From IMG/VR virus record IMGVR_UViG_3300008108_000011, positions 1 through 64,000 of that record: a DNA stretch of 64,000 nucleotides, one strand, 5' to 3'. Under the pieces are notes generated by a model that saw only the letters and a list, made by a program, of their open reading frames with translations, did not search any database and was not told the origin of the DNA. The translations under genes were made by a program, and so were the position numbers. Below are positions 1 to 59,745 of the stretch, piece by piece. The first letter of the stretch is position 1, and the number at the start of each line of letters is the position of its first letter. This DNA is from a virus.

Positions 1-12
1 CTTTGTCTGCCA

Positions 13-225
13 TTAGAAAGGAAACTTAATACTTCCTGTATTTAGTTTAGGAATAGGTAGTTTCTCAAATGCCTTGTTGACCTGCTTCTCTACGACAGCA
101 CCAACAAATTTTTCAGGATTATCGAGAATCTTTTGTGCTTTTTGATAAGTAATGAAAGCACCGACTCCAATAGCAACACTGAATCCTAGACTTGTGATTG
201 ATAATGCTAGTGATAAGTATTTCAT
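13..225 (-). CDS. hypothetical protein with N-terminal TM helix
   Basis: 70-aa ORF with a hydrophobic N-terminus; last of a run of overlapping minus-strand ORFs. Confidence 0.6.
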   Translation of the reverse strand: MKYLSLALSITSLGFSVAIGVGAFITYQKAQKILDNPEKFVGAVVEKQVNKAFEKLPIPKLNTGSIKFPF

Positions 226-428
226 TCTGATACCTCTATTGCTGTAATGGCATCTACATACACGCCAGTTCTATCTGACTTTGTTACTGCTTCGTCTGCA
301 GTTTCAAATCTCATTGCTTTTGAAATGTCTCCTGTCCACTTAGGAGAGTCATTTTCATTGTCTTGGAAGTAAAGACAATCTCCACCAAAGACTTCTCTTG
401 CTGCTATGTATTTCATTCGTTCCACCAT
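222..428 (-). CDS. hypothetical protein
   Basis: 68-aa ORF; its stop overlaps the next start. Confidence 0.55.
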   Translation of the reverse strand: MVERMKYIAAREVFGGDCLYFQDNENDSPKWTGDISKAMRFETADEAVTKSDRTGVYVDAITAIEVSE

Positions 429-613
429 CCTTCTTCTTTATGTATAAAAACTTTCAAATCTTTTACATACTTTCTTAATATTTGTGCTTGTTCTTCATGC
501 CACATATCACCTGTCTCCATACGAAGACGAGTGTGGTTGTCTATGGCTTTGAGTATTTGGTGGATTGGAGCATTCCAGCATTCCCTCTTAGGGGTGTTCC
601 ATTCTCTTGGCAT
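413..613 (-). CDS. hypothetical cyanophage protein
   Basis: 66-aa ORF in an operon-like run. Confidence 0.6.
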   Translation of the reverse strand: MPREWNTPKRECWNAPIHQILKAIDNHTRLRMETGDMWHEEQAQILRKYVKDLKVFIHKEEGWWNE

Positions 614-720
614 GGGATAACAAGTGAGTTTATATCATTATAACGAAGATATTCAAGTTGACATTGCCCAGGGCTAATCTCAACATAACCAACAATCATA
701 AAAGCAATAAATTCCATCAT
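541..720 (-). CDS. hypothetical protein (59 aa, MMEFIAFMIVGYVEISPGQC...)
   Basis: Translated by hand; ATG overlaps the TGA of the upstream 33-aa ORF; overlaps 413..613. Confidence 0.4.
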   Translation of the reverse strand: MMEFIAFMIVGYVEISPGQCQLEYLRYNDINSLVIPCQENGTPLRGNAGMLQSTKYSKP

Positions 721-818
721 TTCTTTTTGCCACCGTTCTTTGCTTTCTTCGCTGTAGCATTACCAGAGTTCTGCTTGGCATTAGCAGACTTGCCTTTTTT
801 ATTTTTTGGCTTGCCCAT
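717..818 (-). CDS. small Lys-rich basic peptide (33 aa, MGKPKNKKGKSANAKQNSGNATAKKAKNGGKKK)
   Basis: Translated by hand; below the ORF-track cutoff; coupled to both neighbours. Confidence 0.5.
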   Translation of the reverse strand: MGKPKNKKGKSANAKQNSGNATAKKAKNGGKKK

Positions 819-1392
819 TGTTCTGAGGAGCAGGTAACATATTATTTATCTGTGGATACTTCACAACTACATCTGAACATATCTTAGCGTAAGGGCTTTG
901 TGGGTGAAAGCTGACACCAGATTTTATTGCTTCTCCACACTTCAATAATCTTACTAATTCAAAATCTAAACGTGCTTTATCTGCCTCGGCACTTTGTCTT
1001 TCTATTTCCGTTCGTGCTCTCTCCTTACAAAGTTCCGTTAAACTTCCATCCAGAGGAAAATTAAATCCCATACTGACACCAGCATTGCCGCTATAGGATT
1101 TGAAAGTTTCTGGATCATCACTACCGTTTCCTGTTGTTAAAACAAAAGGAGCAAAACTCATAGTGGGCCCTTGACAACTAACCCCCGCTCCGTATGTATT
1201 AACAGCATACGGCCCTTGGAGAACTTGAACCGCTTGGTTTGTAACGTTTCCAGTAGCACTAGCACTAGGACCAGCAATGTTAGTATTACTAGGAGCTGTT
1301 TGAGCCAGCACAGGCGATACATACAAACCTACTGTGTAAATACAGATACCGAGTTTGTGGTGGATTGTGTTTCTGTTGTTCTGTCTATCCAT
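799..1392 (-). CDS. secreted-type hypothetical protein (beta-rich N-part, Cys-containing coiled-coil C-part)
   Basis: ...SPVLA/QT signal-peptide-like junction; third gene of a coupled operon. Confidence 0.7.
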   Translation of the reverse strand: MDRQNNRNTIHHKLGICIYTVGLYVSPVLAQTAPSNTNIAGPSASATGNVTNQAVQVLQGPYAVNTYGAGVSCQGPTMSFAPFVLTTGNGSDDPETFKSYSGNAGVSMGFNFPLDGSLTELCKERARTEIERQSAEADKARLDFELVRLLKCGEAIKSGVSFHPQSPYAKICSDVVVKYPQINNMLPAPQNNGQAKK

Positions 1393-46603: not shown

Positions 46604-46687
46604 GGGGCGGTGGTGGAATCGGTAGACACACCAGACTTAAAATCTGTTGGGGGCAACCCCGTGGGAGTTCAAGTCTCCCTCGCCCTA
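46604..46687 (+). tRNA. tRNA-Leu(TAA), intron-less
   Basis: Cloverleaf with variable arm, loop CT-TAA-AA. Confidence 0.9.
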
Positions 46688-46719: not shown

Positions 46720-46986
46720 ATGAAATACACATTATCACAAGCATATGTCTTCTACATGGGAGAAGTTGTGCGAATGTATTTCATACAAAATCTTCCATAT
46801 ACGTTTGATGAGTTACCTCAAATAATCCAAGATCATCCTTCTGTTCAAACAGAAGCACTTAGTCATCGTGATTATGATGATGAAGATCTTTACAGAGTTT
46901 CAAATTATCTTATAATGGAAGAAATGCATCCTTTGATGTTTGACTTAGAAATCGAAAATCCTGAATTGTTACCTAAAGATGATTGA
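46720..46986 (+). CDS. conserved cyanophage hypothetical protein coupled to cpeT
   Basis: VRMYFIQ..PYTFDELP; overlaps the cpeT start. Confidence 0.75.
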   Translation: MKYTLSQAYVFYMGEVVRMYFIQNLPYTFDELPQIIQDHPSVQTEALSHRDYDDEDLYRVSNYLIMEEMHPLMFDLEIENPELLPKDD

Positions 46987-47452
46987 CAAATTTTGTGAAT
47001 ATTTTGAAGGAACATTTGAGAATAAATTGCAAGCAATGTCTTATCCGACACAGTTTGCTATGATTGAACTGATTCACGAAAAAATCGATGAAAATCGTTT
47101 TCGTTGTATTCAACGTTATTATGTTGATAAAAACGAATATCGTAGAACAGTTATTGAGGTCATTCCGCAAGAAACTTCAATTCTAGTCAAAAATTATAAA
47201 GAAAAAGATGAGTTGACTTATCTTTCTGGGTGTGATATAATGTTCGAGCAGATAGGTGATGAATTTCACGGCAAAAATCTTTGTAAAACCTGCTTTGTCT
47301 CCTGGTCGGGAAAAGAAACCTATCTACAAACACAAAGTATTCTCGGAAACGGTTACTATCATGTAATTGATAAGGGATACGATATAAATACCGACGAACA
47401 TATTTGGGGTAGCTTTCACGGGCAATTCCAGTTCGTCAAATCGCCCTTGTAG
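46979..47452 (+). CDS. cpeT: T-type phycobiliprotein lyase (CpeT/CpcT)
   Basis: F.G.F.N..QA...P..FA.I...YR...GCD..F...F.G....C...YL....YHVID.GY......WGS..G.F.F. Confidence 0.88.
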   Translation: MIDKFCEYFEGTFENKLQAMSYPTQFAMIELIHEKIDENRFRCIQRYYVDKNEYRRTVIEVIPQETSILVKNYKEKDELTYLSGCDIMFEQIGDEFHGKNLCKTCFVSWSGKETYLQTQSILGNGYYHVIDKGYDINTDEHIWGSFHGQFQFVKSPL

Positions 47453-47514
47453 CTCAGTGGTAGAGCAGCGGTTTTGTAAACCGCTGGTCGTCTGTTCGAA
47501 TCAGATCGGGGGCT
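47443..47514 (+). tRNA. tRNA-Thr(TGT)
   Basis: Cloverleaf, loop TT-TGT-AA; overlaps the cpeT stop. Confidence 0.93.
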
Positions 47515-47535
47515 CTCCGTGTGAAGGAAGTGATA

Positions 47536-47607: not shown

Positions 47608-50600
47608 ATGCCATTAACAAGATTAGATAATCTTATTTCTAGTAAGACTGGTAAATATCTTTATGTTTCACCTGACGACTTTAATGCTACAGATGCCTTA
47701 GATAACAGAGGTAATTCTCCTCTAAGACCATTTGTTAGTATTCAAAGAGCATTTTTAGAAGCGGCAAGATTCTCGTATCTACCTAATGTAGATAATGACA
47801 GGTTTGACCAGTTTACAATCATGCTGTCGCCTGGCAATCACTATATTGATAACCGCCCTGGTGTGGAAGATGTTTCTACTCTTCCAATTTTTCAATTTAA
47901 TCAGGCAACACAAGAGTGGGAAGCAAATACTAATGTAAGCTTCGATCTCTCAGACCCAGATAATATTCTCTACAAGTTCAATGGTCGTGATGGTGGCGCA
48001 ACCATTCCTAGAGGAACTTCTCTTGTTGGAACAGATCTTCGCAGAACACAAGTTCGTGCTTTATATGTTCCAGATCCTGCTGATCCAGATGTTCCTCGCA
48101 CAGCTCTCTTTAATGTAACGGGTGGATGCTATTTCTGGCAGTTTACCATTCTAGATGGTGATTTAGAAGCAAGTTCGCCATTATATAATGTTGGATCTCC
48201 TGTTGGTGTTGGTAAAGTATACACGCAACCTGGCAGCACTACGAATTTAGCAATTCCTGAATTCTCTCACCACAAAATGACAAACTTTGTGTTTGCCGAC
48301 AGAGAGGATCTAGGTTTACTTTACAGAAAGATTGCTCGTGTATTCAGTGATTATCAACCAGCAATTGATGACGTATATGTAGAAGGTTCAAATACTCCTG
48401 TTACCGATTCTTGGTTTAGCACCACAACCTACCAGATTGGTGATAGGGTTCTTTATGATGGAAATGCTTATATAGCTAGTGCTGTATCCACAAATATTGC
48501 TCCTGATGCAGATGAAACAAAGTGGTCTCGTCTTGTAATTCGTGGTCGTGAATTTGATTTCAGGGTTCAAGAAAATAGAATCGTTGGTCCTCTTTCTGAC
48601 GCTGTTAGATTAGATGAGGTAACAATTTTAGATTCTAACCCCGCAGGAACAGTTACTGTTAAAGTAAGAACAAAAATTAATCATGGTTTCTTCCCTGGTC
48701 AATACGTTGCAATTTCCAATAATGGATTGAATACTACACTCAATGGTGTATTCAAAGTAACTGCTATCAGTCAAACTGATCCAAAAGAATTCGAATATAA
48801 AGTTGCAACCACAGCAACTGGTTTAGGATTGATTAGCGGAACTACTTACACTGCAGTATCTTCTCCATCACTTGACACTAACGCTACCGTACAGGCGGAG
48901 GTAGATAGCGTAGAATCAGCATCTCCATACGTCTTCAACGTTTCGATTCGTTCGACATGGGGTATTTGCGGTATTTGGGCTGATGGTCGCAAGGCGACTG
49001 GTTTCAAATCCATGGTTATCGCCCAGTATACTGGTGTTTCGCTACAGAAAGACGACAGAGCATTCATTCGTTACGACGAATTCAGCAACACATGGAACCA
49101 GGCACCACTAACTGATGCGTTTGCTACAACTCCTTATCACATCAAGGGAGATGCATATTGGAAGGATGATTGGAGAAACTTCCACGTTCGTGCTTCAGAT
49201 GACTCCTTCATTCAGAACGTTTCGATCTTCGCGGTAGGTTTTGCTGATCACTTCCTGCTTGAGTCAGGTGGTGACATGTCTATCACCAACTCGAACTCAA
49301 ACTTTGGTAACACTTCGATGCACTCGAAGGGATACAAAGGTTTTGCATTCTCGCAAGATAAAGGCGGATACATCACTCATATTGTTCCACCAAAATCTCT
49401 TTCTACTCTAAAAAATATTAAGCAACAGTATTATGTTCTGGATGCTCAATTAACTAGAGCTACTTCTAATCAAAATAGATTATATTTTGGATCTGATGAT
49501 GCTCGTAGCGCAGAAGATCGCCCAGCAGCATCGATTGGTGGGTATAGAATTGGTGCAAGAAGAAATGAAAAATTATTTGTAAAACTAGATACTTCTGCTG
49601 CTAAGCAAGCAGAACTTTCTCCATCTGGGTTTAAGAGATGGGTTTCTTCTCTATCCACAATTTCTCCAACTGGTTCTAGATCTGTAGAAGATATAAGTCG
49701 TTTGTATGTAACTAGCACTGTTGGATTTGCTTCAAATGATTTTGTTAAAGTTGATAACGAATTTTTCAGAATTACTGCAGTTAATCCTTCTAGTTTAAAT
49801 GTAGTAAGAGCACAATTGTCATCTGCAGCATCTGATCATGTTAATGCATCTATTGTTACAAAATATATTCAAAACGCTGTAGCGACTACTGTTCTTAATG
49901 AAGAAGTTGATGCTACTGAGACAGTATTTGACGTTCAGAGCACTACTGGTCTTGCTCCAAATATGTTTGCTAGTATTACTAATAGTCAAACATCTATTAA
50001 TGAAACAGTTAGAATTGTAACTATTGAGGGTGCTAGTCAAATTACAGTTCAGAGGGGTCAGTTAGGAACTATTGCTGTTGCTCAACCACAGACATCTTTA
50101 GTTACTCTAACAACACTTTCAAATACATATTCTCCTGCTTCTCCTAGTGTAACAACAACTCTCACTGAGAGATATCCAAGAATTACTCCTGCATCAAATG
50201 CATCAGAAAGAGATTATAATCTTGCACAAGATGCTGCGAATCTAATTGATTCAAATAAAACATTCATTCAAGCAGAAGCATTTGGATATGTTTTACAGAA
50301 ATATCCATATCTTCAAAATATTTCTTATGTAAACCCAAATATCACTGCGGAAACTGGTAGATATCGTGATGCCAGCAATTTGATTAAAGCAAATCGCCAA
50401 GAAATTATTGATTATGCTTTCACTCAAATGCAAGTTGCATTCCCTTCATTCGTTGTTCCAAACAATGAAAATGATAAGTGTAAGCGTGATATTGGATATA
50501 TTGTAGATGCAATCGCAAACGATTTATATGATGGTGGAAATGCAAGCATCATTGAGGCAACCAAAGCATATTTTGACAATAACGGATCTTTAATTACAAA

Positions 50601-53600
50601 TGGTGTTTTGGGTGAGCAAACTCAATCGGTATTTGCTTTCAATAGAGCAAGAGATTGGGCTAAGAAAGCAATTTCAAACCTTCTAGGAAATACTTCTCTA
50701 CTTGATGTAATTAGTATCACTTCATCTGGAACAACTGTCACCGTAACGACAGGAAATCCACATAATTTAGAAGCAGGTAATAAAGTAACAGTTGGCGGTG
50801 CAACTCAAACTGCATATAATGGAAAAGTAACTGTTCTTGCTTCTGGATTAACTGCTACCCAATTTAGATACACTGCATTATCTGCTCCTTCTGCGTCACC
50901 AGCTACTGGTGCATATTATGTTTCGACTGTAACTATTGATCCATCTAATGATTCTATTGTTGCTGGTAGATATAAGGATGCGAGCAACTTAGTTAAATCA
51001 AATCGTCAAGAAATTATTGATAGAGCTGCAGCTAAAGTTGCTATTGATTTTCCTGATTTTTATTATCCAGGTGATAGTCAATCAAATGCAACTTCTCGTT
51101 TTAAGGATTCGTATCGTCTAATTCAACAAAACAGACAAGAAATTATTGATAGAGCAGCTGCCGAAATCGCTGTTCAGCATCCAGATTTTTATTATCCAAA
51201 TGATGCTCAAACTACAAGCACATCGAGATATAAAGATGCTTATCGTTTGATCCAATTAAATAGACAAGAAATTATTAATGGAGCTTATGCTCAAATTGCT
51301 ATTGATTATCCTGGATTTACAAATCCAAATCCAACAAAGTGTCAAAGAGACATTGGATATTTTATTGATGCAATTTCTCTTGATATTTCAATTGGATCTG
51401 GTAATGTTTATTCGCGCAAGTTCACTCAGCAGTATTTTACTGTTAGTGGAGCTCCAATTAGTGATGGATTACTAGGAGAAGAAACACAATCGATTGCTGC
51501 ATTTAATAAAGCTCGTGATTTGATGAAATCGGCAATCACAAATCAATTAACGGTAAAAGATTTAACTGTTACTGTAGATCCTATTACTGGTTCTAATACA
51601 AATGTAAATTCTTGTTCTAATGTTCAACTTGCAATTACTAACTTAAGCGCAATTGTTACAAATGCTATTGGTGCTGGTAGTATTTCTGGTTTACCACCTG
51701 AAAATGTAGGAACTGTTCCTGCTGGAGAAACAAAATGCAAGAGAGATATTGGCATGTTTATTGATGCTATTTCTCTTGATATTGTTCAGGGAGGTGGTAA
51801 TGTTTATGCGCGTAAATTCATTCAACAGTATTTTAATCAGGCAGGAACTGCTTGGATAACTGGCGGATTACAAGGTGAAGAAGCTCAGTCTGTAACTGCA
51901 TTTAACAAAGCAAGAGATATAATGAAACTTGCTGTAGCAAACCAGTTATATGTAAAAGATCTTTCTATTACTGCTGATCCTGCTCCTGGTTCTAATTATG
52001 GAACTTCTGGATCTAATACTGATAATAATTTAAATCCTGCTCTATGTTCAGATGTTCAAAATGCAATTACAACTTTAACTTCTATTGTTACTGCTAGAGT
52101 AACTGCTGGAAATCTTACTGGATTACCTGCAGAAACACAAGCAACCATTCCAAATGGAGAAGCTAAGTGTAAGCGCGACATTGGTTATATTGTAGATTCT
52201 ATTGCCCAAGATTTATTCTGGGGTGGAAATGAATTTACTGTTGGTGCAGTAAGAGAATATTTTACTCTAGCAGGTGTTCCTATTTCTAATGGATTAGTTA
52301 ATGAAGAGAGTCAAACAGTAGTTGCTTTTAATGCTGCAAAAGATGTTGTTAAAAAAGCAGTTACAAATCAACTTTATTCTAAAAATTTAAATCTTTCTTA
52401 TGGTCCAGCAAATGCTGGTGGATCGGGTGGAAATGTAACATACAATGCATCTGGTAATGGTGCTACTTGCGTAGATGTTCAGACCACAGTAGAAAACTTA
52501 TTTGCAATTGCTACTAGTGTTGTAGCGTCTGGAACTTTAGCAAATCTTCCTCCAGTAACTAATGGATCTTACGATTGTGCTAATGTTAGAAATAGTATAG
52601 ATACATTAACTGCAATTTTAACAACTGCGTTAGCATCAGGAAATCTATCTTCTTTACCTGAAGAGAATCCAGGATCATGGAGCACAGTTAGTGAGAGTAG
52701 TAAGTGTAAGCGTGATATTGGATATATTGTAGAGGCAGTTACTTCTGATCTACGTTTGGGTGGAAATGAAAATACTATCAACGCAGCAGAAGCATACTAT
52801 ACAGCTGTTCCTCTCAACACTGACACTGTAGACGGAAGACAAGATGGATTTACTCTAGATTATATTGAAAATGAGAGACCAGAAACTCTAGATGCATACA
52901 ACTATGTAAGAAATTTGGCTATCTCAGCAATGAGAAACCACAATACTTATATCAATAATGCTTCCACTACTTTAAATTCTCCAATCGTTACAGTTCCAAG
53001 CACAATTGGTCTTGCTATTGGAATGCGTGTTAGAAGTGTCAATGCTATTCCAACAGGTCCTTCTGATACAGTATCATTTACTTCTACTATTCCAGATACA
53101 GCATACATCAAAAAAATTGGTGATGGTCAAAATGGATTGGCATCGAATCAAATAGAATTAGGAAGACTAGGAAGCAGATTTGATGATGGAGAAACTGTAA
53201 GTGCTCAGGGAACATCGTCTACTGTAAAATTATACGTTGAATTAAATCAAGGATCTTGGGCAACAACAATTGCTCCTTCAACCGATAGCGCAGTTATTCA
53301 AGATTATAATTACACGGCTGCTGGCGATCCTTCAACTGGATCTCCAGGAGGAGAGTGCGCTACTGTTGCTAATTCAATTGTTAATTATTTCAATATTATT
53401 TCAACAATTATCAACAATGGTGTTGGTGTTGTTCCTAGAGTTGCTTCTTCTCTTAACACAGCATCCCTCGCTCAAAGAGGATCTCTATTCACTTTAACTG
53501 AATATGATAGCAATGGAAATCCAACATCAAACCCCCACCAGTTAGAAACTGGAACTCCAGTAAGACTTGTTCCATCTCCTAGACCAGGAACTAATCCAGA

Positions 53601-56600
53601 CAAGAGACTGGTTAGACTTCCAAAAGGATTTGATACAAATACTATTTACTATGTAATTGCTCCTGGCAGAAGAACAGATCCTTTTGATTATTCTAATTCT
53701 ATCGGATTTAATGGCGCAAATCAGCAAACATTGATGCTTGCTACTAGTGAAGAGAATGCTGCCGCAGGTATTTACATTTATTCTTCCGAGACTGATAGTG
53801 TAGATCCAGATGTAAATATTGATGTTTATCAGTATGTTCTAGATCTTAAGTATGATCTACATCAATATGAAACTAAAATTGCTAATAATAGCAGCACCGA
53901 ATTTGAAACCACTAGACCACATATTTTTGACAAACCAGCTGATGGAGTTGAACCTCAGTTAGTGTTCTTTAGAGTTGGAAGTGATATTATTGGATCATCG
54001 TTGCCTACTCTATCTTCTAATTTTGGTGGAACTGTTATTTCAGAAAAGCAACAGTATTATGTTCGTTATGTAAGTTCCAGAAGATTTACGATTCACCAAA
54101 CATTTACTGATGCTAGAGATAATATTAATCCTGTAACTTTCCAACCAGGAAGCACCGCAGTATTCTACGCATTTGCTAGCAAGAGAAGATCTCCTCTCAA
54201 ATATGATCCTGTTGTAGGTGGTGCAAATGATGGTTGCTGGTATTTAAACACCTTAACTGCAGGAAATGAAATTGTTCCTAGATTGAAGTTTAGTGATTAT
54301 GCAGGAAGAATCAGAACAACTGATACTTACTTTGAACGTATTGAAGATAATAGAACGGAAGATGATCGTGTATATAGATTCCGTTATGTAATTCCTAAGA
54401 ATCTTAAAACCGTTCGTGATCCTCTACGTGGATTTGTGTTTAAGATTAGAACAGATGAAAAGAGAAGATTGCTCCCCCAGAAAATATTACTGAAACCAAC
54501 TGCATCTGGTTCTTCACTTGCCACAATTAATGCTCCTGTCACTGGTGAAAGACTAGGTTTAACTGTATCTGAACTATACAGTCAAACTGGTAAAGATTCT
54601 ACTTACGATCCAGGTCCTCAGGGTAATCCTAAGAGAATCGAAACAGATTCTAAGATTTCTTTCACAGTTCAATCTGCCAGAAAGAGAACTATTCAAAATA
54701 GAGATTATTTAGAATTAACTGTATTTGATATTGGTGTAGATGCCGAAGCATATAAGACTAAACTCTTCACAACGGTTAAAATTTCTGCTCCTGAGGGTGG
54801 AGATGGATCCTTTATTGAAAGTATTCCAAATTCTAATAACACAAATAAAATTACTTGGGATGGTAATAGCAAGGGAACTGCATATGTTCACGCATATTTT
54901 TCTTATGAAAACGATTACTACATGATTCTTAAGGATCTCACTGGTAATTCTGAAATTAAGTATGATAGTAATACAGTTACTACCTTTACTCAAGGATCTG
55001 TAACTGCTACTTTACTTGATCAACCAAATGGCGGAAGATCTGACATTTCTAATTTCCTTTATGTTGTGGAAGGAGCAAACGTTTACACTATGACTCCTGG
55101 CGACACTTTAAATGATGATCAAGGAGTGTCGTATACAATTGCTGAAGTAGAAGATTCTTCTGAACTTGAAAGCACTTTCTACATTTTTGATATTGATACT
55201 ATCCGTAGAAGAATTGCTGGTCAACAAGATGGTGTGTATTATCTCACATGTTTACGTGGAGATATTAGACCTTTCCCAACTGGTTCTGGTGTTGGTGAAA
55301 ACTTCAGAAACTTCAGATTCTCTCAACCAGTATCTAAGTTATATCCAGAATTCTATAAGAACGACCCAGAATGGTATAAGGGAATAAGTGCAGCAACTGC
55401 CACGTTACTTGATCCACCACCAACAATTTCTGCGGCAGACAACTATATCCATGGTTTAGTTACGGTTAATGATTCCAAAGGATCTGTAACTAGAGAAACC
55501 GTTCTTGATTTTGTTGCTGATCCTGGAACAGGAAATTATACATATTCTGGAAATAATACAATTCAAGCTCAACCAGGATCAGCTTCTGCTGGATCTGAAG
55601 GCAGATTGATTCCTATTTCTGGCGATTCTCCATATCCAACAGAAGGAAAACTTTATATAGAACTTCGTAGACCATCTATTGCGCGTTCTGGCAACCATAC
55701 CTTTGAATACCTTGGTTTCGGTCCTGGTAACTACTCAACTGGTTTCCCTGCGCGTCAGGAAGTGGTCTTAACTGATGTTCAAGACTTCTATGCTCAAGCT
55801 AAGCGTGAAGACGCTGGTATCGTCTTCTACACGGGTCTGAACTCCAATGGTGACCTCTACATTGGTAATCGCAAGATCAATGCTATTACTGGTGAAGAAA
55901 CATTCCTAGAAAGAGCGGCATTAGTTGAATCTGAGGATGAAGGAGATAGTATTGGCAATCTTGTAACTACTTTTGATACTCCAGTTACATTTAATCAAAT
56001 CATCACAATTAATGGTGGTGATGGATCTGATGAAAGTTTCTTCAATTCTCCAGTTGTAATTAATAATGCAACTTCTTTCGGAACGGTAGAAAATTATCCT
56101 TCACTTAAGATTGTTACTGGAGAAGGAACTCCTGTTGGATTTGATCAGTATTTAGAATATAATACTGTTGGTCAAAGAACAGGTGATATCGTCATTCATC
56201 AAAACAGAATTACTGCAGCTGTATTTGATTTCAATCCAAGAGGAACACAAGATTATACTATTAGAACTTCCATATCAAATATCACTCCAGATTTTAACAA
56301 TACATTTGGGCAAACTACAGGATTTACTTCTCAAATTTTAGCAACTAATTTTGGAACTAGAGATCCGTTGAAGTCAGGTGATATGCTATTGAAGGGAGAT
56401 CAAACTTCCTTTACTGGATCGTTAGGTTGGATATATGCTAATGATTACATTGCTATAACTAACAGATCTGATGGTCAAACAACACCTCAAGTTGTAGGTA
56501 TTCAGGGTAATGCTACTGGAACATTTGCTAGAATTAACTGGAATACTGGTATTAATAATGGTTCTCTAAGTATTAATAGTTCTACTCAAATTAGAATTAC

Positions 56601-59600
56601 TAATGCTACTGGAACATTAGCAGTTACAAATGGTGTTTGGAATATTGTTCCAGGAAGTTTTAACGCTTCTAACAATTATATTGATGTTATTCTGAACTCT
56701 AATCTTTCTGTGTATCCAGTTAATCTTAATAATGGTAAAGGATACCCAGTTGATCAAGTAGCACAACCAAATATTGCAATCGCTCGTTCGTCTTCTCAAT
56801 TTAAGGAGTGGGGTGTTCTAGGTGCAGAAGCAATTAGAACAGAAACTTCTTCGATTGGAAATTACAAGTTAGGTATTAATACCGTTGCTCGTTCTCCACA
56901 TTCTGCATATCTGACAGCATTTGTTTCTCCAGAAACAACGCCAAGAGCAAATCTTGATGTTGTCGGTAATGCATTTATCAGTGGTAAGGCAATTAATTCT
57001 TATTTAACTGAGCAAACATCTACGAAGACAGAAACTAATTTAGACAATGCTTTGGTTGTTGGTGGCAATAGTTTGAGTCTAAATGGTCCTGCTACATTCC
57101 GTGTTCAGACAACGAATAATGGTAGAGTAGGAATTAATACTTCTCTAGTTGATGTCGTAAATCCATCCAACGTTCTTGATAGAAATTTTGTAGTTGTAGG
57201 TAATGCTAGAATTACTTCAGATTTTGAATTAACAGGTGACCTTCAAGTTAATGGTGGTGATTTAACTACAACTTCTCCATCTTTCAATTTATTAAATACT
57301 TCTTCTCCAGACATTTTAAACTTTGCTGGTGGTGCAGAAATATTTAATATTGGTCACACGACAACTGGAGCTCAAACAATTAATGTCGGCAATGCTGCTT
57401 CATCTAGTTATATTCAAGTTGGTAACGTTGCTACAGAATCTGTTTTCAGAATTCATAGAAATTCATTAAACGCAATTGTTGATATTGCTTCCGTTGCTGA
57501 TACTGTTGGTAATAGTTGTGAAGTTCAAATTGGCGGAGCATGGAACAATACTGCTAGCTTCACTGAAATACGCACCAGACAAACATTAATTGCTGGAGAA
57601 TTAGAATTTGGAACTAGGTATGCTTCTGGAACTAGTCAGTCTAGAATTTTCACTCAGACTAGAGTTCTGAATGCATTTGATGGTGATCAAACCAATACAG
57701 TTAATCTTGCTACTAATGCAACTACCTTCAACCTCGGATCTCTTGGTGGTAATACTACCATTAGAAATACTCTTAATGTTCTTGCAAGTGAAAACGTTAA
57801 TGGTAATATTAGACTGAATGGTGGATTAAATGCAGGTATTGTTGAAATTGTAAGAGGAAGATTCTCTACAACACCAGTCGCACACAACGTAGGAAATCTC
57901 GCAAACACCAACATTGATTATTATCAGTATAATACAACTGGTAGAATAATTGATACTCAAGGTGTTGCACAATGGGGAGGAACTTCGTTCTTGGTTGCTG
58001 GTGGTCAAATTGCTGGTATTGATACTATTACAAATACTGGCGGAACAAATAGAAATCCTGGAACATATAGTTTCATTCCAGCAACAGGTGGAACTGGAAC
58101 GGGTGCTACATTTACTATTAGCATTGCTAACGATAAAACTCTTAATATTGATATTGTTAGCCCTGGATCTGGATATACTGATAATGACCTATTAATAATT
58201 ACTGCTGCACAAATTGGTGGTGGAACTGGTGCTGGCAATCTTACATTCCAAGTAAATGGTGTAAATGCTGGTGGATCTAGCTATTATCTACCAATTTCTA
58301 CTCCTGGTGTGTTTGATTTCAGAGTTGGTGATCTTATTCTCATAGATCGTGGTGATGCAGCAACACCAGATAGTGTTGTTGTTTCTGGTGGTGGAAGCAT
58401 TACTGGATTAAGAAATCAAGCAAACAGTGAGATTGTTCGTGTTACTGGATTAACAAACTTAAGTAATCCAAATGATCCAGAAGGTTTCCGAGTTCAAGTT
58501 ATTCGTGGTCAGGAAGGAACACAGGTAAGAACAGATCACCCACAAGGTTGTGTGCTTGCTAAATTAATTAAACAAACAAATGCAAGTTATATTACAGGAT
58601 CTGATCTTAATAATGATGGAGTTTTAGATACACCTGTGACGGGTATTTCAAATTCCTCTGTCAATGTTAATATTGGTGTTGCTGAATTTGGTGGAGTTCT
58701 TACTACCAGAGACTTCTTGAGATTATCTGGTTCAGAAATCGTTGGTATTGCTAGAACGGTATCCACTGATATTCAAGTTCTTGAAGTTAACGATGGATCT
58801 TTAACACCCGCTACAGTATTCAAAGTAGAATCTACTACTGGTAATACAATTATTGGTGGTAATCTTGGGGTTGGAACTGGATTTAATAAATTTACAGTTA
58901 CTGGATCATCTGGAAACACTAATATTGCTGGAACATTAACAACAGAGAACACATTAACTATTAATGGATCTACTATTCCTAATACTCAATTCTTTACTAT
59001 TACTAACGGTGGTGCTACAGGAACTCCATTGAGAACTACATTCCAGATTGATACTGCGAATGGTAATGTTAGAATGAATGGTGGAAACATCAACATCTAT
59101 GGAACTGATGGAACAACACCTAGACTAACGTTTGTCAATTCTTCGGGTGACTTTACCACATATGGTTCTTTCTCTGCTCTTGGAACGGGTGCTAGCACTT
59201 TTGGTGGTGATATTGTTGCTGCAGGTGATTTAACAATTAATGGTGGTGATATCACTGTTAATTCTGGAGGTAATCCTATTTTTGAGGTAAATAGTAATGG
59301 TTCTATGCGTATTGCTGGAATCAATAATTACTTTACTCAAACGGGTGGTAGAAGATGGGAGTATGCCGATGGATTTGTCATTAATGCTTTGGCAAACGTT
59401 AATTATTTTGTTAATGCTACACAAAATACGCTATTTAAACTTCCTCAAAATGCTCTAATTGGTGATATGATTCGTATTATAGATATTGGTGGAAACTTAA
59501 ATTATAATTTAAGTTTGATTGTAAGAGCTCCTGACAACGTAAAAGTTCAGAACGCATCTGATAATACTGCAAGAAATATTGCTTCTGGTATTCCAGTTTC

Positions 59601-59745
59601 TGATTTTGTTGGATATAATGGTGGTGAAATGGTTGTTCAAACTCCATACGCTGCATTTGCACTAGTTTTTGCAGGATCTACAACTCCAGATGGCAACACT
59701 GCTGTTCCATCATCTATCGCTGGTTGGTATTTAATCGAAGTCTAA
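47608..59745 (+). CDS. giant virion structural / fibre-like protein (~4045 aa) containing five nested phycobiliprotein-like domains
   Basis: Late promoter; MPLTRLDNLIS...LYV N-terminus; beta-helix-like region; five KCxRDIG and five Cxx(V)xx(A/S/T)(I/V) repeats; C-terminal ...GDMIRIID...LIVRAP...GWYLIEV module seen on T4-like baseplate/fibre proteins. Confidence 0.85.
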   Translation: MPLTRLDNLISSKTGKYLYVSPDDFNATDALDNRGNSPLRPFVSIQRAFLEAARFSYLPNVDNDRFDQFTIMLSPGNHYIDNRPGVEDVSTLPIFQFNQATQEWEANTNVSFDLSDPDNILYKFNGRDGGATIPRGTSLVGTDLRRTQVRALYVPDPADPDVPRTALFNVTGGCYFWQFTILDGDLEASSPLYNVGSPVGVGKVYTQPGSTTNLAIPEFSHHKMTNFVFADREDLGLLYRKIARVFSDYQPAIDDVYVEGSNTPVTDSWFSTTTYQIGDRVLYDGNAYIASAVSTNIAPDADETKWSRLVIRGREFDFRVQENRIVGPLSDAVRLDEVTILDSNPAGTVTVKVRTKINHGFFPGQYVAISNNGLNTTLNGVFKVTAISQTDPKEFEYKVATTATGLGLISGTTYTAVSSPSLDTNATVQAEVDSVESASPYVFNVSIRSTWGICGIWADGRKATGFKSMVIAQYTGVSLQKDDRAFIRYDEFSNTWNQAPLTDAFATTPYHIKGDAYWKDDWRNFHVRASDDSFIQNVSIFAVGFADHFLLESGGDMSITNSNSNFGNTSMHSKGYKGFAFSQDKGGYITHIVPPKSLSTLKNIKQQYYVLDAQLTRATSNQNRLYFGSDDARSAEDRPAASIGGYRIGARRNEKLFVKLDTSAAKQAELSPSGFKRWVSSLSTISPTGSRSVEDISRLYVTSTVGFASNDFVKVDNEFFRITAVNPSSLNVVRAQLSSAASDHVNASIVTKYIQNAVATTVLNEEVDATETVFDVQSTTGLAPNMFASITNSQTSINETVRIVTIEGASQITVQRGQLGTIAVAQPQTSLVTLTTLSNTYSPASPSVTTTLTERYPRITPASNASERDYNLAQDAANLIDSNKTFIQAEAFGYVLQKYPYLQNISYVNPNITAETGRYRDASNLIKANRQEIIDYAFTQMQVAFPSFVVPNNENDKCKRDIGYIVDAIANDLYDGGNASIIEATKAYFDNNGSLITNGVLGEQTQSVFAFNRARDWAKKAISNLLGNTSLLDVISITSSGTTVTVTTGNPHNLEAGNKVTVGGATQTAYNGKVTVLASGLTATQFRYTALSAPSASPATGAYYVSTVTIDPSNDSIVAGRYKDASNLVKSNRQEIIDRAAAKVAIDFPDFYYPGDSQSNATSRFKDSYRLIQQNRQEIIDRAAAEIAVQHPDFYYPNDAQTTSTSRYKDAYRLIQLNRQEIINGAYAQIAIDYPGFTNPNPTKCQRDIGYFIDAISLDISIGSGNVYSRKFTQQYFTVSGAPISDGLLGEETQSIAAFNKARDLMKSAITNQLTVKDLTVTVDPITGSNTNVNSCSNVQLAITNLSAIVTNAIGAGSISGLPPENVGTVPAGETKCKRDIGMFIDAISLDIVQGGGNVYARKFIQQYFNQAGTAWITGGLQGEEAQSVTAFNKARDIMKLAVANQLYVKDLSITADPAPGSNYGTSGSNTDNNLNPALCSDVQNAITTLTSIVTARVTAGNLTGLPAETQATIPNGEAKCKRDIGYIVDSIAQDLFWGGNEFTVGAVREYFTLAGVPISNGLVNEESQTVVAFNAAKDVVKKAVTNQLYSKNLNLSYGPANAGGSGGNVTYNASGNGATCVDVQTTVENLFAIATSVVASGTLANLPPVTNGSYDCANVRNSIDTLTAILTTALASGNLSSLPEENPGSWSTVSESSKCKRDIGYIVEAVTSDLRLGGNENTINAAEAYYTAVPLNTDTVDGRQDGFTLDYIENERPETLDAYNYVRNLAISAMRNHNTYINNASTTLNSPIVTVPSTIGLAIGMRVRSVNAIPTGPSDTVSFTSTIPDTAYIKKIGDGQNGLASNQIELGRLGSRFDDGETVSAQGTSSTVKLYVELNQGSWATTIAPSTDSAVIQDYNYTAAGDPSTGSPGGECATVANSIVNYFNIISTIINNGVGVVPRVASSLNTASLAQRGSLFTLTEYDSNGNPTSNPHQLETGTPVRLVPSPRPGTNPDKRLVRLPKGFDTNTIYYVIAPGRRTDPFDYSNSIGFNGANQQTLMLATSEENAAAGIYIYSSETDSVDPDVNIDVYQYVLDLKYDLHQYETKIANNSSTEFETTRPHIFDKPADGVEPQLVFFRVGSDIIGSSLPTLSSNFGGTVISEKQQYYVRYVSSRRFTIHQTFTDARDNINPVTFQPGSTAVFYAFASKRRSPLKYDPVVGGANDGCWYLNTLTAGNEIVPRLKFSDYAGRIRTTDTYFERIEDNRTEDDRVYRFRYVIPKNLKTVRDPLRGFVFKIRTDEKRRLLPQKILLKPTASGSSLATINAPVTGERLGLTVSELYSQTGKDSTYDPGPQGNPKRIETDSKISFTVQSARKRTIQNRDYLELTVFDIGVDAEAYKTKLFTTVKISAPEGGDGSFIESIPNSNNTNKITWDGNSKGTAYVHAYFSYENDYYMILKDLTGNSEIKYDSNTVTTFTQGSVTATLLDQPNGGRSDISNFLYVVEGANVYTMTPGDTLNDDQGVSYTIAEVEDSSELESTFYIFDIDTIRRRIAGQQDGVYYLTCLRGDIRPFPTGSGVGENFRNFRFSQPVSKLYPEFYKNDPEWYKGISAATATLLDPPPTISAADNYIHGLVTVNDSKGSVTRETVLDFVADPGTGNYTYSGNNTIQAQPGSASAGSEGRLIPISGDSPYPTEGKLYIELRRPSIARSGNHTFEYLGFGPGNYSTGFPARQEVVLTDVQDFYAQAKREDAGIVFYTGLNSNGDLYIGNRKINAITGEETFLERAALVESEDEGDSIGNLVTTFDTPVTFNQIITINGGDGSDESFFNSPVVINNATSFGTVENYPSLKIVTGEGTPVGFDQYLEYNTVGQRTGDIVIHQNRITAAVFDFNPRGTQDYTIRTSISNITPDFNNTFGQTTGFTSQILATNFGTRDPLKSGDMLLKGDQTSFTGSLGWIYANDYIAITNRSDGQTTPQVVGIQGNATGTFARINWNTGINNGSLSINSSTQIRITNATGTLAVTNGVWNIVPGSFNASNNYIDVILNSNLSVYPVNLNNGKGYPVDQVAQPNIAIARSSSQFKEWGVLGAEAIRTETSSIGNYKLGINTVARSPHSAYLTAFVSPETTPRANLDVVGNAFISGKAINSYLTEQTSTKTETNLDNALVVGGNSLSLNGPATFRVQTTNNGRVGINTSLVDVVNPSNVLDRNFVVVGNARITSDFELTGDLQVNGGDLTTTSPSFNLLNTSSPDILNFAGGAEIFNIGHTTTGAQTINVGNAASSSYIQVGNVATESVFRIHRNSLNAIVDIASVADTVGNSCEVQIGGAWNNTASFTEIRTRQTLIAGELEFGTRYASGTSQSRIFTQTRVLNAFDGDQTNTVNLATNATTFNLGSLGGNTTIRNTLNVLASENVNGNIRLNGGLNAGIVEIVRGRFSTTPVAHNVGNLANTNIDYYQYNTTGRIIDTQGVAQWGGTSFLVAGGQIAGIDTITNTGGTNRNPGTYSFIPATGGTGTGATFTISIANDKTLNIDIVSPGSGYTDNDLLIITAAQIGGGTGAGNLTFQVNGVNAGGSSYYLPISTPGVFDFRVGDLILIDRGDAATPDSVVVSGGGSITGLRNQANSEIVRVTGLTNLSNPNDPEGFRVQVIRGQEGTQVRTDHPQGCVLAKLIKQTNASYITGSDLNNDGVLDTPVTGISNSSVNVNIGVAEFGGVLTTRDFLRLSGSEIVGIARTVSTDIQVLEVNDGSLTPATVFKVESTTGNTIIGGNLGVGTGFNKFTVTGSSGNTNIAGTLTTENTLTINGSTIPNTQFFTITNGGATGTPLRTTFQIDTANGNVRMNGGNINIYGTDGTTPRLTFVNSSGDFTTYGSFSALGTGASTFGGDIVAAGDLTINGGDITVNSGGNPIFEVNSNGSMRIAGINNYFTQTGGRRWEYADGFVINALANVNYFVNATQNTLFKLPQNALIGDMIRIIDIGGNLNYNLSLIVRAPDNVKVQNASDNTARNIASGIPVSDFVGYNGGEMVVQTPYAAFALVFAGSTTPDGNTAVPSSIAGWYLIEV
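50221..53421 (+). repeat. five interleaved phycobiliprotein/globin-like repeats
   Basis: 5x (R)Y.DA..LI..N(R/K)..I...A...P; 5x KC.RDIG..(V/I)(D/E)(A/S)(I/V)..D...G.N; 5x C..V...(I/V)..(L/Y). Confidence 0.8.

What the first reader, a model, noticed from the sequence alone, without database searches (positions are those of the whole stretch)
50221..53421. The five domains are nested Russian-doll style rather than tandem
Seen: segment order is N1 N2 M1 [beta insert] N3 N4 N5 M2 Ca M3 Cb M4 Cc Cd M5 [beta insert] Ce, where N is the N-terminal helices, M the Cys84 core and C the Cys155 helix. This parses exactly as five complete domains inserted inside each other: N5-M2-Ca within N4..M3-Cb, within N3..M4-Cc, within N2-M1..Cd, within N1..M5-Ce. 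N3-N5 are near-identical ~130-nt DNA repeats (51001-51290). Inference: repeated self-insertion builds a rigid out-and-back stalk of stacked chromophore domains whose length can vary between phages. Such splitting would also hide the domains from linear HMM searches.
Basis: partly seen in the sequence, partly recalled or inferred. Interest (0 to 1): 0.75.

Follow-up and report, generated by a model that had tools for sequence, protein, structure and literature searches.

The report
Nested phycobiliprotein domains in cyanophage fibre
A giant tail-fibre protein of a virus of marine cyanobacteria contains five copies of the host's light-harvesting pigment-protein fold, each inserted inside the next like Russian dolls; relatives carry 3 to 15 such copies, always in matched sets, an unusual way to build a protein stalk of adjustable length.

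Summary
Residues 866-1946 of the 4045-aa fibre protein (gene 47608-59745, +) contain five N segments, five M segments and five C segments. N is helices A-B, M is helices E-F-G with a C-x-R-D motif, and C is a Cys plus helix H. Their order is NNM[beta]NNNMCMCMCCM[beta]C.

1. In 121 full-length relatives and 80 related loci, copy number runs from 3 to 15 and nesting depth reaches 10. N equals M almost everywhere, and 148 of 201 strings (19 architectures) parse exactly as nested N-M-C. The failures are truncated ORFs, missed weak C segments or split M segments, plus one unresolved count mismatch.
2. Two AlphaFold2 models place all five domains as predicted. Structural alignments to phycobiliproteins or globins run from N1 to Ce, N2 to Cd, N3 to Cc, N4 to Cb and N5 to Ca. 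The three-domain core model has pLDDT 88 and pTM 0.89.

Paralog similarity also fits the nested pairing and not the linear one.

Three points are not established. Self-insertion as the origin is unproven, because the N array behaves like a recombining tandem array. The N3-N5 DNA repeats are only 67-72% identical. Pigment binding is untested, although the Cys84-type and Cys155-type residues are conserved and cpeT lies next door.

This scan has noted similar nested domains in other cyanophage genomes. I found no paper describing them.

The parts
47608..59745 (+). Giant virion fibre gene (4045 aa from ATG 47608; the open frame begins at GTG 47521)
   Evidence: ORF list, translation. PHROG phrog_4527 'short tail fiber' and phrog_529 'tail fiber'. 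Pfam PF00502, 45.3 bits, E 1.2e-11.
50203..50316 (+). N1 (aa 866-903), helices A-B of the outermost domain D1
   Evidence: Alignment. Several globin alignments span model 8/12..1082-1087, i.e. N1 to Ce.
50353..50463 (+). N2 (aa 916-952), helices A-B of domain D2
   Evidence: Phycobiliprotein alignments span model 27/58..819, Z 14.8-16.8.
50470..50685 (+). M1 (aa 955-1026), helices E-F-G of D2 with the KCKRD motif
   Evidence: (Pfam hit across N2-M1).
50686..50961 (+). Beta insert 1 (aa 1027-1118), a small beta-barrel in the G-H loop of D2
   Evidence: Strands in model 1. VIA: phage phi92 endosialidase 4hiz_A Z 9.2, rmsd 2.2, and ubiquitin E1 FCCH domain Z 8.3-8.8, at model 170-252.
50962..51075 (+). 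N3 (aa 1119-1156), helices A-B of D3
   Evidence: Globin 4b4y_A aligns to model-2 residues 2..522, i.e. N3 to Cc.
51091..51204 (+). N4 (aa 1162-1199), helices A-B of D4; a mosaic of an N5-like first half and an N3-like second half
   Evidence: Globin 3wct_C aligns to model-2 residues 45..384, i.e. N4 to Cb.
51220..51330 (+). N5 (aa 1205-1241), helices A-B of the innermost, contiguous domain D5
   Evidence: Phycobiliprotein beta chains Z 16-17.7, rmsd about 2.1 A, over model-2 residues 87..239.
51331..51549 (+). M2 (aa 1242-1314), helices E-F-G of D5 (KCQRD)
51604..51705 (+). Ca (aa 1333-1366), Cys plus helix H of D5
51727..51945 (+). M3 (aa 1374-1446), helices E-F-G of D4 (KCKRD)
52039..52137 (+). 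Cb (aa 1478-1510), Cys plus helix H of D4
   Evidence: the alignment ends at model-2 residue 384, the end of this helix.
52159..52377 (+). M4 (aa 1518-1590), helices E-F-G of D3 (KCKRD)
52462..52557 (+). Cc (aa 1619-1650), Cys plus helix H of D3
   Evidence: the alignment ends at model-2 residue 522.
52570..52671 (+). Cd (aa 1655-1688), Cys plus helix H of D2, about 630 residues after M1
   Evidence: alignments end at model-1 residue 819-825, inside this helix.
52696..52965 (+). M5 (aa 1697-1786), helices E-F-G of D1 (KCKRD), the most divergent M
52966..53349 (+). Beta insert 2 (aa 1787-1914), a beta domain in the G-H loop of D1
   Evidence: VIA: phage Bridgette 8eci_2 Z 7.4 and phage tail-tube chain 9n71_B Z 6.8, at model 920-1024. 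No Pfam hit.
53350..53445 (+). Ce (aa 1915-1946), Cys plus helix H of D1
46979..47452 (+). cpeT, a T-type bilin lyase gene directly upstream (context, not part of the nest)
   Evidence: PF06206, 64.8 bits, E 1.1e-18. Synteny in related loci and in S-RSM4.
47443..47515 (+). tRNA-Thr between cpeT and the fibre gene
   Evidence: ARAGORN.

Best explanation
Residues about 866-1946 of the giant virion fibre protein form five phycobiliprotein-type globin-fold domains nested inside one another.

Each domain is built from three pieces. N is an A-B helical hairpin. M holds helices E, F and G and starts with the Cys84-type C-x-R-D motif. C is a conserved Cys followed by helix H.

The chain lays down N hairpins on the way out and closes a contiguous domain (N5-M2-Ca) at the tip. 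It then returns through M-C units, each completing the domain whose N hairpin was laid down earlier. The pairings are N4+M3-Cb, N3+M4-Cc, N2-M1+Cd and N1+M5-Ce. Insertions sit in two loops, B-E (between N and M) and G-H (between M and C). The G-H loops of D2 and D1 also carry small beta domains.

Because every domain needs one N, one M and one C, copy number can change only in matched sets, and relatives have 3 to 15 domains.

Shown here: the segment homology, the bracket grammar across relatives, the predicted pairing, and the phycobiliprotein relationship.

Inferred: the stack is an elongated, fairly rigid hairpin stalk that sets fibre length or reach. Copy number changes by paired unequal recombination in the N array and the M-C array, possibly with tip self-insertion.
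For: - Homology of segments: five N, five M and five C segments align within each class. Pfam PF00502 scores 45.3 bits against a cut-off of 22.2. phmmer aligns the KC-x-RDIGY stretch of M2 with the Cys84 region of CpcA.
- Grammar, full-length relatives: among 121 proteins, N equals M in nearly all. 62 parse exactly at strict thresholds and 92 with a relaxed C threshold.
- Grammar, with loci added: 148 of 201 strings parse, giving 19 architectures, 3-15 copies and depth up to 10.
- Forbidden neighbours: N followed directly by C appears in only one of the 201 strings, an unparsed one (NNMNNNMCMCMNCCMC). The M-M cases I inspected were single M segments split by insertions.
- Indels: in the MAFFT alignment, 4-copy orthologs lack N4 together with Ca-M3. 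The 3-copy ortholog lacks N4-N5 together with M2 through Cb, leaving N3 with M4-Cc.
- AlphaFold2 model 2 (aa 1117-1652, 32-sequence alignment) has pLDDT 88.0 and pTM 0.89.
- VIA on model 2: phycobiliprotein beta chains align at Z 16-17.7, rmsd about 2.1 A, on residues 87..239, which is N5-M2-Ca. Globin 3wct_C aligns to 45..384 (N4 to Cb) and globin 4b4y_A to 2..522 (N3 to Cc).
- VIA on model 1 (aa 858-1954, pLDDT 66): phycobiliproteins align at Z 14.8-16.8 on 27/58..819 (N2-M1 to Cd). Five globins at Z 6.4-8.1, plus a colicin A pore domain at Z 7.1, align to about 6/12..1076-1087 (N1 to Ce).
- Paralog congruence in this protein: N1, M5 and Ce are each the most divergent of their class. N4-N5, M2-M3 and Ca-Cb are each the most similar pair.
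- Paralog congruence across 142 proteins: the correlation between N-N and M-M identity matrices is 0.66 under nested pairing, 0.13 under linear pairing and 0.00 for random pairing.
- Mutual information between N and M columns is highest for nested partners: top-20 APC sum 4.38, against 1.51 for linear pairing and 0.81 for random. Against spatial neighbours it is 4.1-4.4 versus 2.5-2.8.
- Splicing raises the phycobiliprotein HMM score: N3-M4-Cc 24.0 bits versus 12.4 for M4-Cc alone, and N4-M3-Cb 19.7 versus 10.2.
Against: - No coordinates were available, so pairing is read from the first and last aligned residues of structural alignments, not from a contact map.
- The alignments that reveal D1, D3 and D4 are to distant globins at Z 5.8-8.1. 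That level would be unremarkable for helical proteins if the ranges did not coincide with the predicted borders.
- Model 1 is only moderately confident (pLDDT 66, pTM 0.48).
- A monomer prediction cannot exclude complementation between subunits of an oligomeric fibre.
- 53 of 201 strings do not parse exactly. One protein (P0052: 9 N, 10 M, 10 C) looks truly unbalanced or mis-assembled.
- The mutual-information and similarity tests are confounded by shared duplication history, so they show co-duplication or co-evolution, not contact.
Confidence: 0.85

Rival explanations
1. Two separate tandem arrays. The N hairpins form their own helical-repeat rod and the M-C units form a second array of incomplete four-helix modules. 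They lie side by side, in parallel (first-in-first-out) register or in no fixed register, without completing phycobiliprotein folds.
For: N^k(MC)^k runs look like two tandem arrays at the DNA level: TRF finds a 129-nt period in the N array, and N4 is a recombinant-looking mosaic. In two of 17 architectures the linear pairing gave clearly higher paralog congruence than the nested one, and in a third marginally higher.
Against: N5-M2 and N2-M1 are contiguous and match Pfam PF00502 across the junction, so N does belong to the fold. The structural alignments run N4 to Cb, N3 to Cc, N2 to Cd and N1 to Ce. Linkers between units are only about 5-15 residues, too short for a chain to return to the start of the array, as parallel register would require. 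Paralog congruence is 0.66 nested against 0.13 linear overall. Branched architectures such as N10(MC)7NN(MC)5 still satisfy the stricter nested grammar.
Confidence: 0.05
2. Complementation in trans. The same N:M:C bookkeeping holds, but in the assembled oligomeric fibre the outer N hairpins complete M-C units of a neighbouring chain (three-dimensional domain swapping), so the stalk is an intertwined bundle rather than a single-chain hairpin.
For: Phage fibres are usually oligomers, and phycobiliproteins pair through their N-terminal helices (general knowledge). In the models the preceding N hairpin occupies the place of the phycobiliprotein X-Y helices on the next inner domain (chain residues 1-30 align to model-2 residues 59-87). 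Only monomers were modelled.
Against: The monomer model of the three-domain core is self-consistent and confident (pTM 0.89). The tip domain is necessarily formed in cis. The short linkers favour the nearest partner in the same chain.
Confidence: 0.08
3. Prediction artefact. AlphaFold2 and the HMM parse impose a familiar globin fold on a low-complexity helical region, and the balanced counts reflect how the segments were defined.
For: Segment HMMs were seeded from this protein. The C model is short and needed a relaxed threshold. Helical proteins give middling structural Z-scores by chance (tool notes).
Against: The independent Pfam model PF00502 exceeds its gathering score. Z reaches 16-17.7 at rmsd about 2 A over 132-156 residues, well above the background quoted for helical models. 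Balanced counts hold across 19 architectures down to 35% identity, found with thresholds set before parsing.
Confidence: 0.02

Closest known systems
Phycobiliprotein beta subunits (CpcB, CpeB, cryptophyte beta chains; Pfam PF00502)
   Same: They share the globin-like core of helices A, B, E, F, G and H: Z 16-17.7, rmsd about 2.1 A over 132-156 residues. Pfam scores above its cut-off. The Cys84-Arg86-Asp87 motif is kept in all five copies here and in at least 90% of 867 distinct M copies. A second conserved Cys precedes helix H and aligns with beta Cys153/155 in a profile-profile alignment (probability only 45%).
   Different: These are domains inside a 4045-aa virion protein, not free 160-180-aa antenna subunits. 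They have no X-Y hairpin of their own. Four of the five are discontinuous in sequence. Pigment attachment and alpha-beta or hexamer assembly are unknown.
Bilin-binding domain of the phycobilisome core-membrane linker ApcE
   Same: It is a phycobiliprotein-fold domain embedded in a large multidomain protein. It is a close structural match: 4xxi_A Z 14.8-14.9, rmsd 1.9-2.0. ApcE carries an insertion (the PB-loop) between helices B and E, the site used most often for nesting here (ApcE loop position from general knowledge; 591 B-E insertions counted).
   Different: ApcE has one such domain, and its insertion is a loop rather than another complete domain. There is no recursion and no variable copy number.
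Discontinuous domains formed by domain insertion ('Russian-doll' proteins described in structural surveys)
   Same: A parent domain is interrupted by a complete inserted domain whose ends lie close together. Two-level nesting has been described (general knowledge, not checked in a paper here).
   Different: Here the same fold is inserted into itself repeatedly, to depth 4 in this protein and 10 in relatives, with branching. Copy number varies between close relatives while staying balanced. I found no description of such an array.
Giant 'short tail fibre' proteins of cultured cyanomyoviruses (e.g. S-RSM4 SRSM4_214; S-PM2 p091)
   Same: They are orthologs. The S-RSM4 protein (P0073) is 45% identical over this region, reads NNMNNNNMCMCMCMNMCCMC with one C missed, and is also preceded by cpeT. 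By tblastn, 265 cyanophage records contain the module.
   Different: Copy number and branching differ. Database annotation says only tail fibre or structural protein. The papers I read mention neither the phycobiliprotein domains nor their nesting.

Membership tests
Phycobiliprotein family (Pfam PF00502) | Sequence match to the family profile above the curated threshold | tested here: met
   45.3 bits against a cut-off of 22.2, E 1.2e-11, for the whole protein. The N2-M1 fragment alone scores 24.0 bits. Profile-profile comparison of the spliced family with CpcA-type sequences gives probability 94%, E 1.3e-7.
Phycobiliprotein family (Pfam PF00502) | Globin-like fold with helices A, B, E, F, G, H | tested here: met
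   This is a predicted model, not an experimental structure. VIA Z 16-17.7, rmsd about 2.1 A, 132-156 residues aligned to beta chains. Foldseek probability 1.0 to phycocyanin chains.
Phycobiliprotein family (Pfam PF00502) | Bilin-attachment Cys84 with Arg86 and Asp87 | tested here: met
   All five M segments carry C-x-R-D. It aligns to the Cys84 region of CpcA. Each of the three residues is kept in at least 90% of 867 distinct M copies.
Phycobiliprotein family (Pfam PF00502) | N-terminal X-Y hairpin and alpha-beta monomer or (alpha-beta)3 assembly | tested here: inconclusive
   Core alignments start near chain residue 32. When chain residues 1-30 are aligned, they fall on the preceding N hairpin. 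Oligomeric state was not modelled.
Phycobiliprotein family (Pfam PF00502) | Covalently bound bilin chromophore | not testable with these tools
   Only indirect support: conserved Cys84-type and Cys155-type residues and cpeT directly upstream.
Nested (discontinuous) domain insertion | The parent domain is completed by sequence on both sides of a complete inserted domain | tested here: met
   Structural alignments span N1 to Ce, N2 to Cd (model 1), and N3 to Cc, N4 to Cb, N5 to Ca (model 2). The evidence is alignment ranges on predicted models.
Nested (discontinuous) domain insertion | Piece counts stay balanced and bracketed when copy number changes | tested here: met
   148 of 201 strings parse exactly, with 19 architectures and 3-15 copies. 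Indels in 3-, 4- and 5-copy orthologs remove matched N and M-C pieces. One unresolved exception is P0052.
T4 gp12-type short tail fibre (the database name of the orthologs) | Homology to T4 gp12 or its receptor-binding domain | tested here: inconclusive
   The name comes from PHROG phrog_4527 and GenBank records. No gp12-type Pfam family appeared in the whole-protein scan. Some relatives of the module are annotated as baseplate wedge gp7.

The most novel reading that the evidence does not exclude
The nested stalk is a pigmented part of the virion. Host- or phage-made bilins would be attached to the Cys84-type and Cys155-type sites, the latter by the T-type lyase CpeT encoded directly upstream. 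That would give a stack of up to 15 chromophore domains acting as a light sensor or antenna on the fibre or baseplate. It would give phage cpeT, pebS, pcyA and ho1 a phage-encoded substrate, and it could underlie the light-dependent adsorption reported for some cyanophages (bioRxiv 10.1101/167650).
Probability: 0.3. Interest if true: 0.93.

Novelty: new variant of a known kind. Interest (0 to 1): 0.8.

Why it matters
Domain insertion is well known, but usually as one domain placed in another. Here one fold is inserted into itself again and again. This gives a stalk whose length changes in whole-domain steps, and only when two distant parts of the gene change together. That makes it a natural test case for how discontinuous domains fold and how repeat proteins evolve under a bookkeeping constraint.

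It is also a warning for annotation. Linear profile searches see only two of the five domains, so such architectures are probably under-counted.

The nested fold is the host's pigment-binding fold, with both attachment cysteines conserved and a bilin lyase gene next door. The structure therefore defines exactly which fragments to express to test whether cyanophage particles carry pigment. That question bears on the long-unexplained phage bilin genes and on light-dependent adsorption.

Tried and rejected
- Model coordinates are not exposed, so I could not compute a contact map, Cys-Cys distances or the rod shape. Pairing had to be read from alignment ranges.
- Foldseek on the 1097-residue model gave no hit at E <= 0.001 and reports no ranges. 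It was useful only as input to the second-look aligner.
- The first VIA run on each model listed only the best-scoring domain: D2 in model 1 and D5 in model 2. The outer domains appeared only in the wide searches.
- Mutual information between N and C columns did not discriminate nested partners from neighbours.
I obtained phycobiliprotein sequences by a DNA-pattern scan instead.
- Pfam gave nothing credible for either beta insert.
- Seven literature searches found no description of phycobiliprotein-like domains in phage fibres or of recursive self-nesting. The key CpeT paper (Gasper et al. 2017) is not held.
- I rejected linear (first-in-first-out) pairing and the prediction-artefact reading, for the reasons given under the rival explanations.

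Full report
**What the window is.** The window is the first 64 kb of a complete 192.7-kb virus genome with terminal repeats. Its relatives are T4-like cyanomyoviruses of Synechococcus. The finding lies inside one very long gene, 47608-59745 on the + strand, encoding 4045 aa; the open frame starts at GTG 47521. PHROG profiles name it a tail fibre or short tail fibre (phrog_4527, phrog_529). Pfam reports the phycobilisome-protein family PF00502 at 45.3 bits, E 1.2e-11.

**The observation.** Five C-x-R-D motifs lie at aa 958, 1245, 1377, 1521 and 1700. Homology within each class is clear.
- N is about 37 aa and forms two helices.
- M is about 72 aa and forms three helices, starting K-C-K-R-D-I-G-Y.
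- C is about 32 aa: a Cys followed by one helix.

Of the 756,756 orderings of five N, five M and five C, only 273 parse as properly nested N-M-C units. The DNA repeat in the N array is real (51007-51284, period 129 nt, 2.2 copies). It is only 75% matching, however, and N3, N4 and N5 are 67-72% identical at the DNA level, so 'near-identical' is too strong.

**Relationship to phycobiliproteins.**
- phmmer aligns the end of N5 and the start of M2 with helix B and the Cys84 region of CpcA.
- The second AlphaFold2 model (described below) places N5-M2-Ca on phycobiliprotein beta chains with Z 16-17.7. The rmsd is about 2.1 A over 132-156 residues, covering chain residues 32-172.
- On that mapping N is helices A-B, M is helices E-F-G and C is helix H.
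- I built a profile of the spliced units from 952 instances. It matches a CpcA alignment with probability 94% (E 1.3e-7).
- Against CpcB the probability is only 45%. In that alignment the M cysteine falls on Cys82/84 and the C-segment cysteine falls on beta Cys153/155.
- Across relatives, the Cys, Arg and Asp of the M motif and the Cys of the C segment are each kept in at least 90% of more than 800 distinct copies.

**Test 1: counts and order in relatives.**
- A database search with aa 870-1940 found 487 relatives of 2483-6823 aa. A scan of viral contigs returned 80 loci.
- I built HMMs for N, M and C and wrote each protein as a string of letters.
- Among 121 full-length proteins, N equals M in nearly all. 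62 strings parse exactly at strict thresholds and 92 with a relaxed threshold for the short C model.
- With the loci added, 148 of 201 strings parse. They fall into 19 architectures with 3, 4, 5, 6, 7, 8, 9, 10, 12, 13 or 15 domains, and nesting depth reaches 10.
- Examples are NNMNMCCMC, NNMNNMCMCCMC, this protein's NNMNNNMCMCMCCMC, NNMNNNNMCMCMCMNMCCCMC, and N10(MC)7NN(MC)5.
- The failures are ORFs cut by contig ends, one missed C, or an M split by an insertion: a 40-aa insertion in P0054 and a 400-aa insertion in P0016.
- One protein, P0052, has 9 N, 10 M and 10 C. It is either mis-assembled or a true exception.
- Insertions sit between N and M 591 times and between M and C 140 times. 257 domains are contiguous.
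- In a MAFFT alignment, 4-copy orthologs lack N4 together with Ca-M3. The 3-copy ortholog lacks N4-N5 together with M2 through Cb, which leaves N3 with M4-Cc as the nested model requires.

**Test 2: predicted structure.**
- Model 1 covers aa 858-1954 with a 17-sequence alignment. It reached pLDDT 66 and pTM 0.48, with the inner units poorly defined.
- Model 2 covers aa 1117-1652 (N3 through Cc). Its alignment holds 32 closed three-deep nests taken from diverse loci. It reached pLDDT 88.0 and pTM 0.89.
- Coordinates are not exposed, so I read the pairing from the first and last aligned residues of structural alignments. These are sequential, so the first aligned model residue supplies helix A and the last supplies helix H.

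| Domain | Model | Aligned range | Segments spanned | Best matches |
|---|---|---|---|---|
| D2 | 1 | 27/58..819 | N2-M1 to Cd, across about 630 inserted residues | phycobiliproteins, Z 14.8-16.8 |
| D1 | 1 | about 6/12..1076-1087 | N1 to Ce | five globins Z 6.4-8.1, colicin A pore domain Z 7.1 |
| D5 | 2 | 87..239 | N5-M2-Ca | phycobiliproteins, Z 16-17.7 |
| D4 | 2 | 45..384 | N4 helix start to Cb helix end | globin 3wct_C, Z 5.8, 128 aligned |
| D3 | 2 | 2..522 | N3 to Cc | globin 4b4y_A, Z 5.9, 138 aligned |

The Z-scores for D1, D3 and D4 are modest. Ordinary globins score similarly (Z 6-10) against the contiguous domain D5. What carries weight is that the ranges coincide with the predicted borders. 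All five N-to-C pairings are therefore last-in-first-out.

**Independent sequence evidence.**
- Within this protein, N1, M5 and Ce are each the most divergent member of their class. N4-N5, M2-M3 and Ca-Cb are each the most similar pair. That is congruent under nested pairing and incongruent under linear pairing.
- Over 142 proteins with four or more domains, the correlation between the N-N and M-M identity matrices averages 0.66 for nested pairing, 0.13 for linear pairing and 0.00 for random pairing.
- Mutual information between N and M columns is highest for nested partners: top-20 corrected sum 4.38, against 1.51 linear and 0.81 random. Against spatial neighbours it is 4.1-4.4 versus 2.5-2.8.
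- These tests show shared history or co-evolution, not contact. The N-to-C comparison did not discriminate.

**Hidden from linear searches.** Pfam matches only the two places where N is contiguous with M. It gives nothing for the fragments starting at M3 and M5 or for the M4-to-Cd fragment. I built a phycobiliprotein HMM from 141 cpcA/cpcB genes of cyanobacterial genomes. Against it, splicing raises the scores as follows:

| Spliced unit | Score (bits) | M-C alone (bits) |
|---|---|---|
| N3-M4-Cc | 24.0 | 12.4 |
| N4-M3-Cb | 19.7 | 10.2 |
| N1-M5-Ce | 15.4 | 10.4 |

**How it probably arose.** Self-insertion is not demonstrated. N4 is a mosaic: its first 13 residues resemble N5 and its second half resembles N3. 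The 129-nt repeat phase is offset from the domain borders. Both fit unequal recombination within a tandem N array. On the other hand, N4-N5, M2-M3 and Ca-Cb are about equally diverged at the DNA level (68-70%). That fits a single event at the tip, or two events in quick succession. The constraint is clear, since only matched changes persist. The mutational route is open.

**What it is for.** The region most likely forms a hairpin stalk of stacked globin-fold domains, carrying two small beta domains in G-H loops. Insert 1 resembles the ubiquitin E1 FCCH barrel and a domain of phage phi92 endosialidase (Z 8.3-9.2). Insert 2 resembles small phage beta domains (Z 6.8-7.4). Stalk length and branching differ between phages. 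Whether the stack is straight, and whether it is formed within one chain or between chains of an oligomer, could not be tested.

**Pigment.** This belongs to sibling findings, but it bears on the word 'chromophore' in this one.
- cpeT (PF06206, 64.8 bits) ends 155 nt before the fibre ATG, with a tRNA-Thr between them.
- About 36 related loci also have cpeT within 75-1600 nt upstream, down to 30-39% identity. About 24 loci with enough upstream sequence do not.
- S-RSM4 has cpeT, then tRNAs, then an HNH gene, then the fibre gene. S-PM2 does not have this arrangement.
- T-type lyases serve the beta Cys153/155 site (review PMC10452541), which is the site the C-segment cysteine aligns with.
- No bilin reductase gene was found in this genome.
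- Some cyanophages adsorb only in the light, and tail-fibre changes have been suggested as a cause (bioRxiv 10.1101/167650).
- The module occurs in 265 cyanophage records and no others. One is P-HM1, where it lies in a protein annotated gp7.
- Pigment binding remains an inference.

**Novelty.** None of the papers I searched or read describes phycobiliprotein-like domains in phage fibres, or recursive self-nesting. Earlier notes of this scan report the same kind of domains, some called nested, in other cyanophage genomes. I treat those as unchecked leads. Domain insertion and the phycobiliprotein fold are both known. The recursive, balanced, variable-depth self-nesting is a new variant.

Noticed in passing
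window 46979-47452 (+), and loci L003-L076: cpeT (T-type bilin lyase) sits directly upstream of the fibre gene. The arrangement recurs in about 36 related loci down to 30-39% protein identity and in phage S-RSM4. It is absent from about 24 loci with enough upstream sequence and from S-PM2.
   Followed up: partly
window 50686-50961 (aa 1027-1118): Beta insert 1 is predicted as a small beta-barrel. It resembles the ubiquitin E1 FCCH domain and a domain of phage phi92 endosialidase (Z 8.3-9.2, rmsd about 2.3 A). A weak Pfam E1_FCCH hit also occurs at aa 350-398 of the same protein.
   Followed up: partly
window 52966-53349 (aa 1787-1914): Beta insert 2 has no Pfam hit. Part of it resembles small beta domains of phage Bridgette and of a phage tail tube (Z 6.8-7.4).
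   Followed up: no
window 51091-51204 (N4): N4 is a mosaic. Its first 13 residues match N5 (10 of 13) and its second half matches N3 (13 of 19), as expected from unequal recombination within the tandem N array.
   Followed up: partly
proteins P0016 and P0054 (relatives, not the window): There is a third insertion site, inside M. In P0054-type proteins M1 is split by about 40 aa. In P0016-type proteins one M is split by about 400 aa (aa 1282-1689).
   Followed up: no
protein P0052 (relative, 2483 aa): This is the one apparent violation of the balance rule, with 9 N, 10 M and 10 C. It could be a collapsed repeat in a metagenome assembly or a real unbalanced variant.
   Followed up: no
phage records, e.g. 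NC_015280.1 54418-54996 (P-HM1): By tblastn, the module occurs in 265 phage records, all cyanophages. In some it lies in proteins annotated as baseplate wedge gp7 or 'baseplate wedge initiator' rather than tail fibre.
   Followed up: partly
window 46604-46687 and 47443-47515: tRNA-Leu(taa) and tRNA-Thr(tgt) flank the cpeT region. S-RSM4 has a cluster of five tRNAs at the same place.
   Followed up: no
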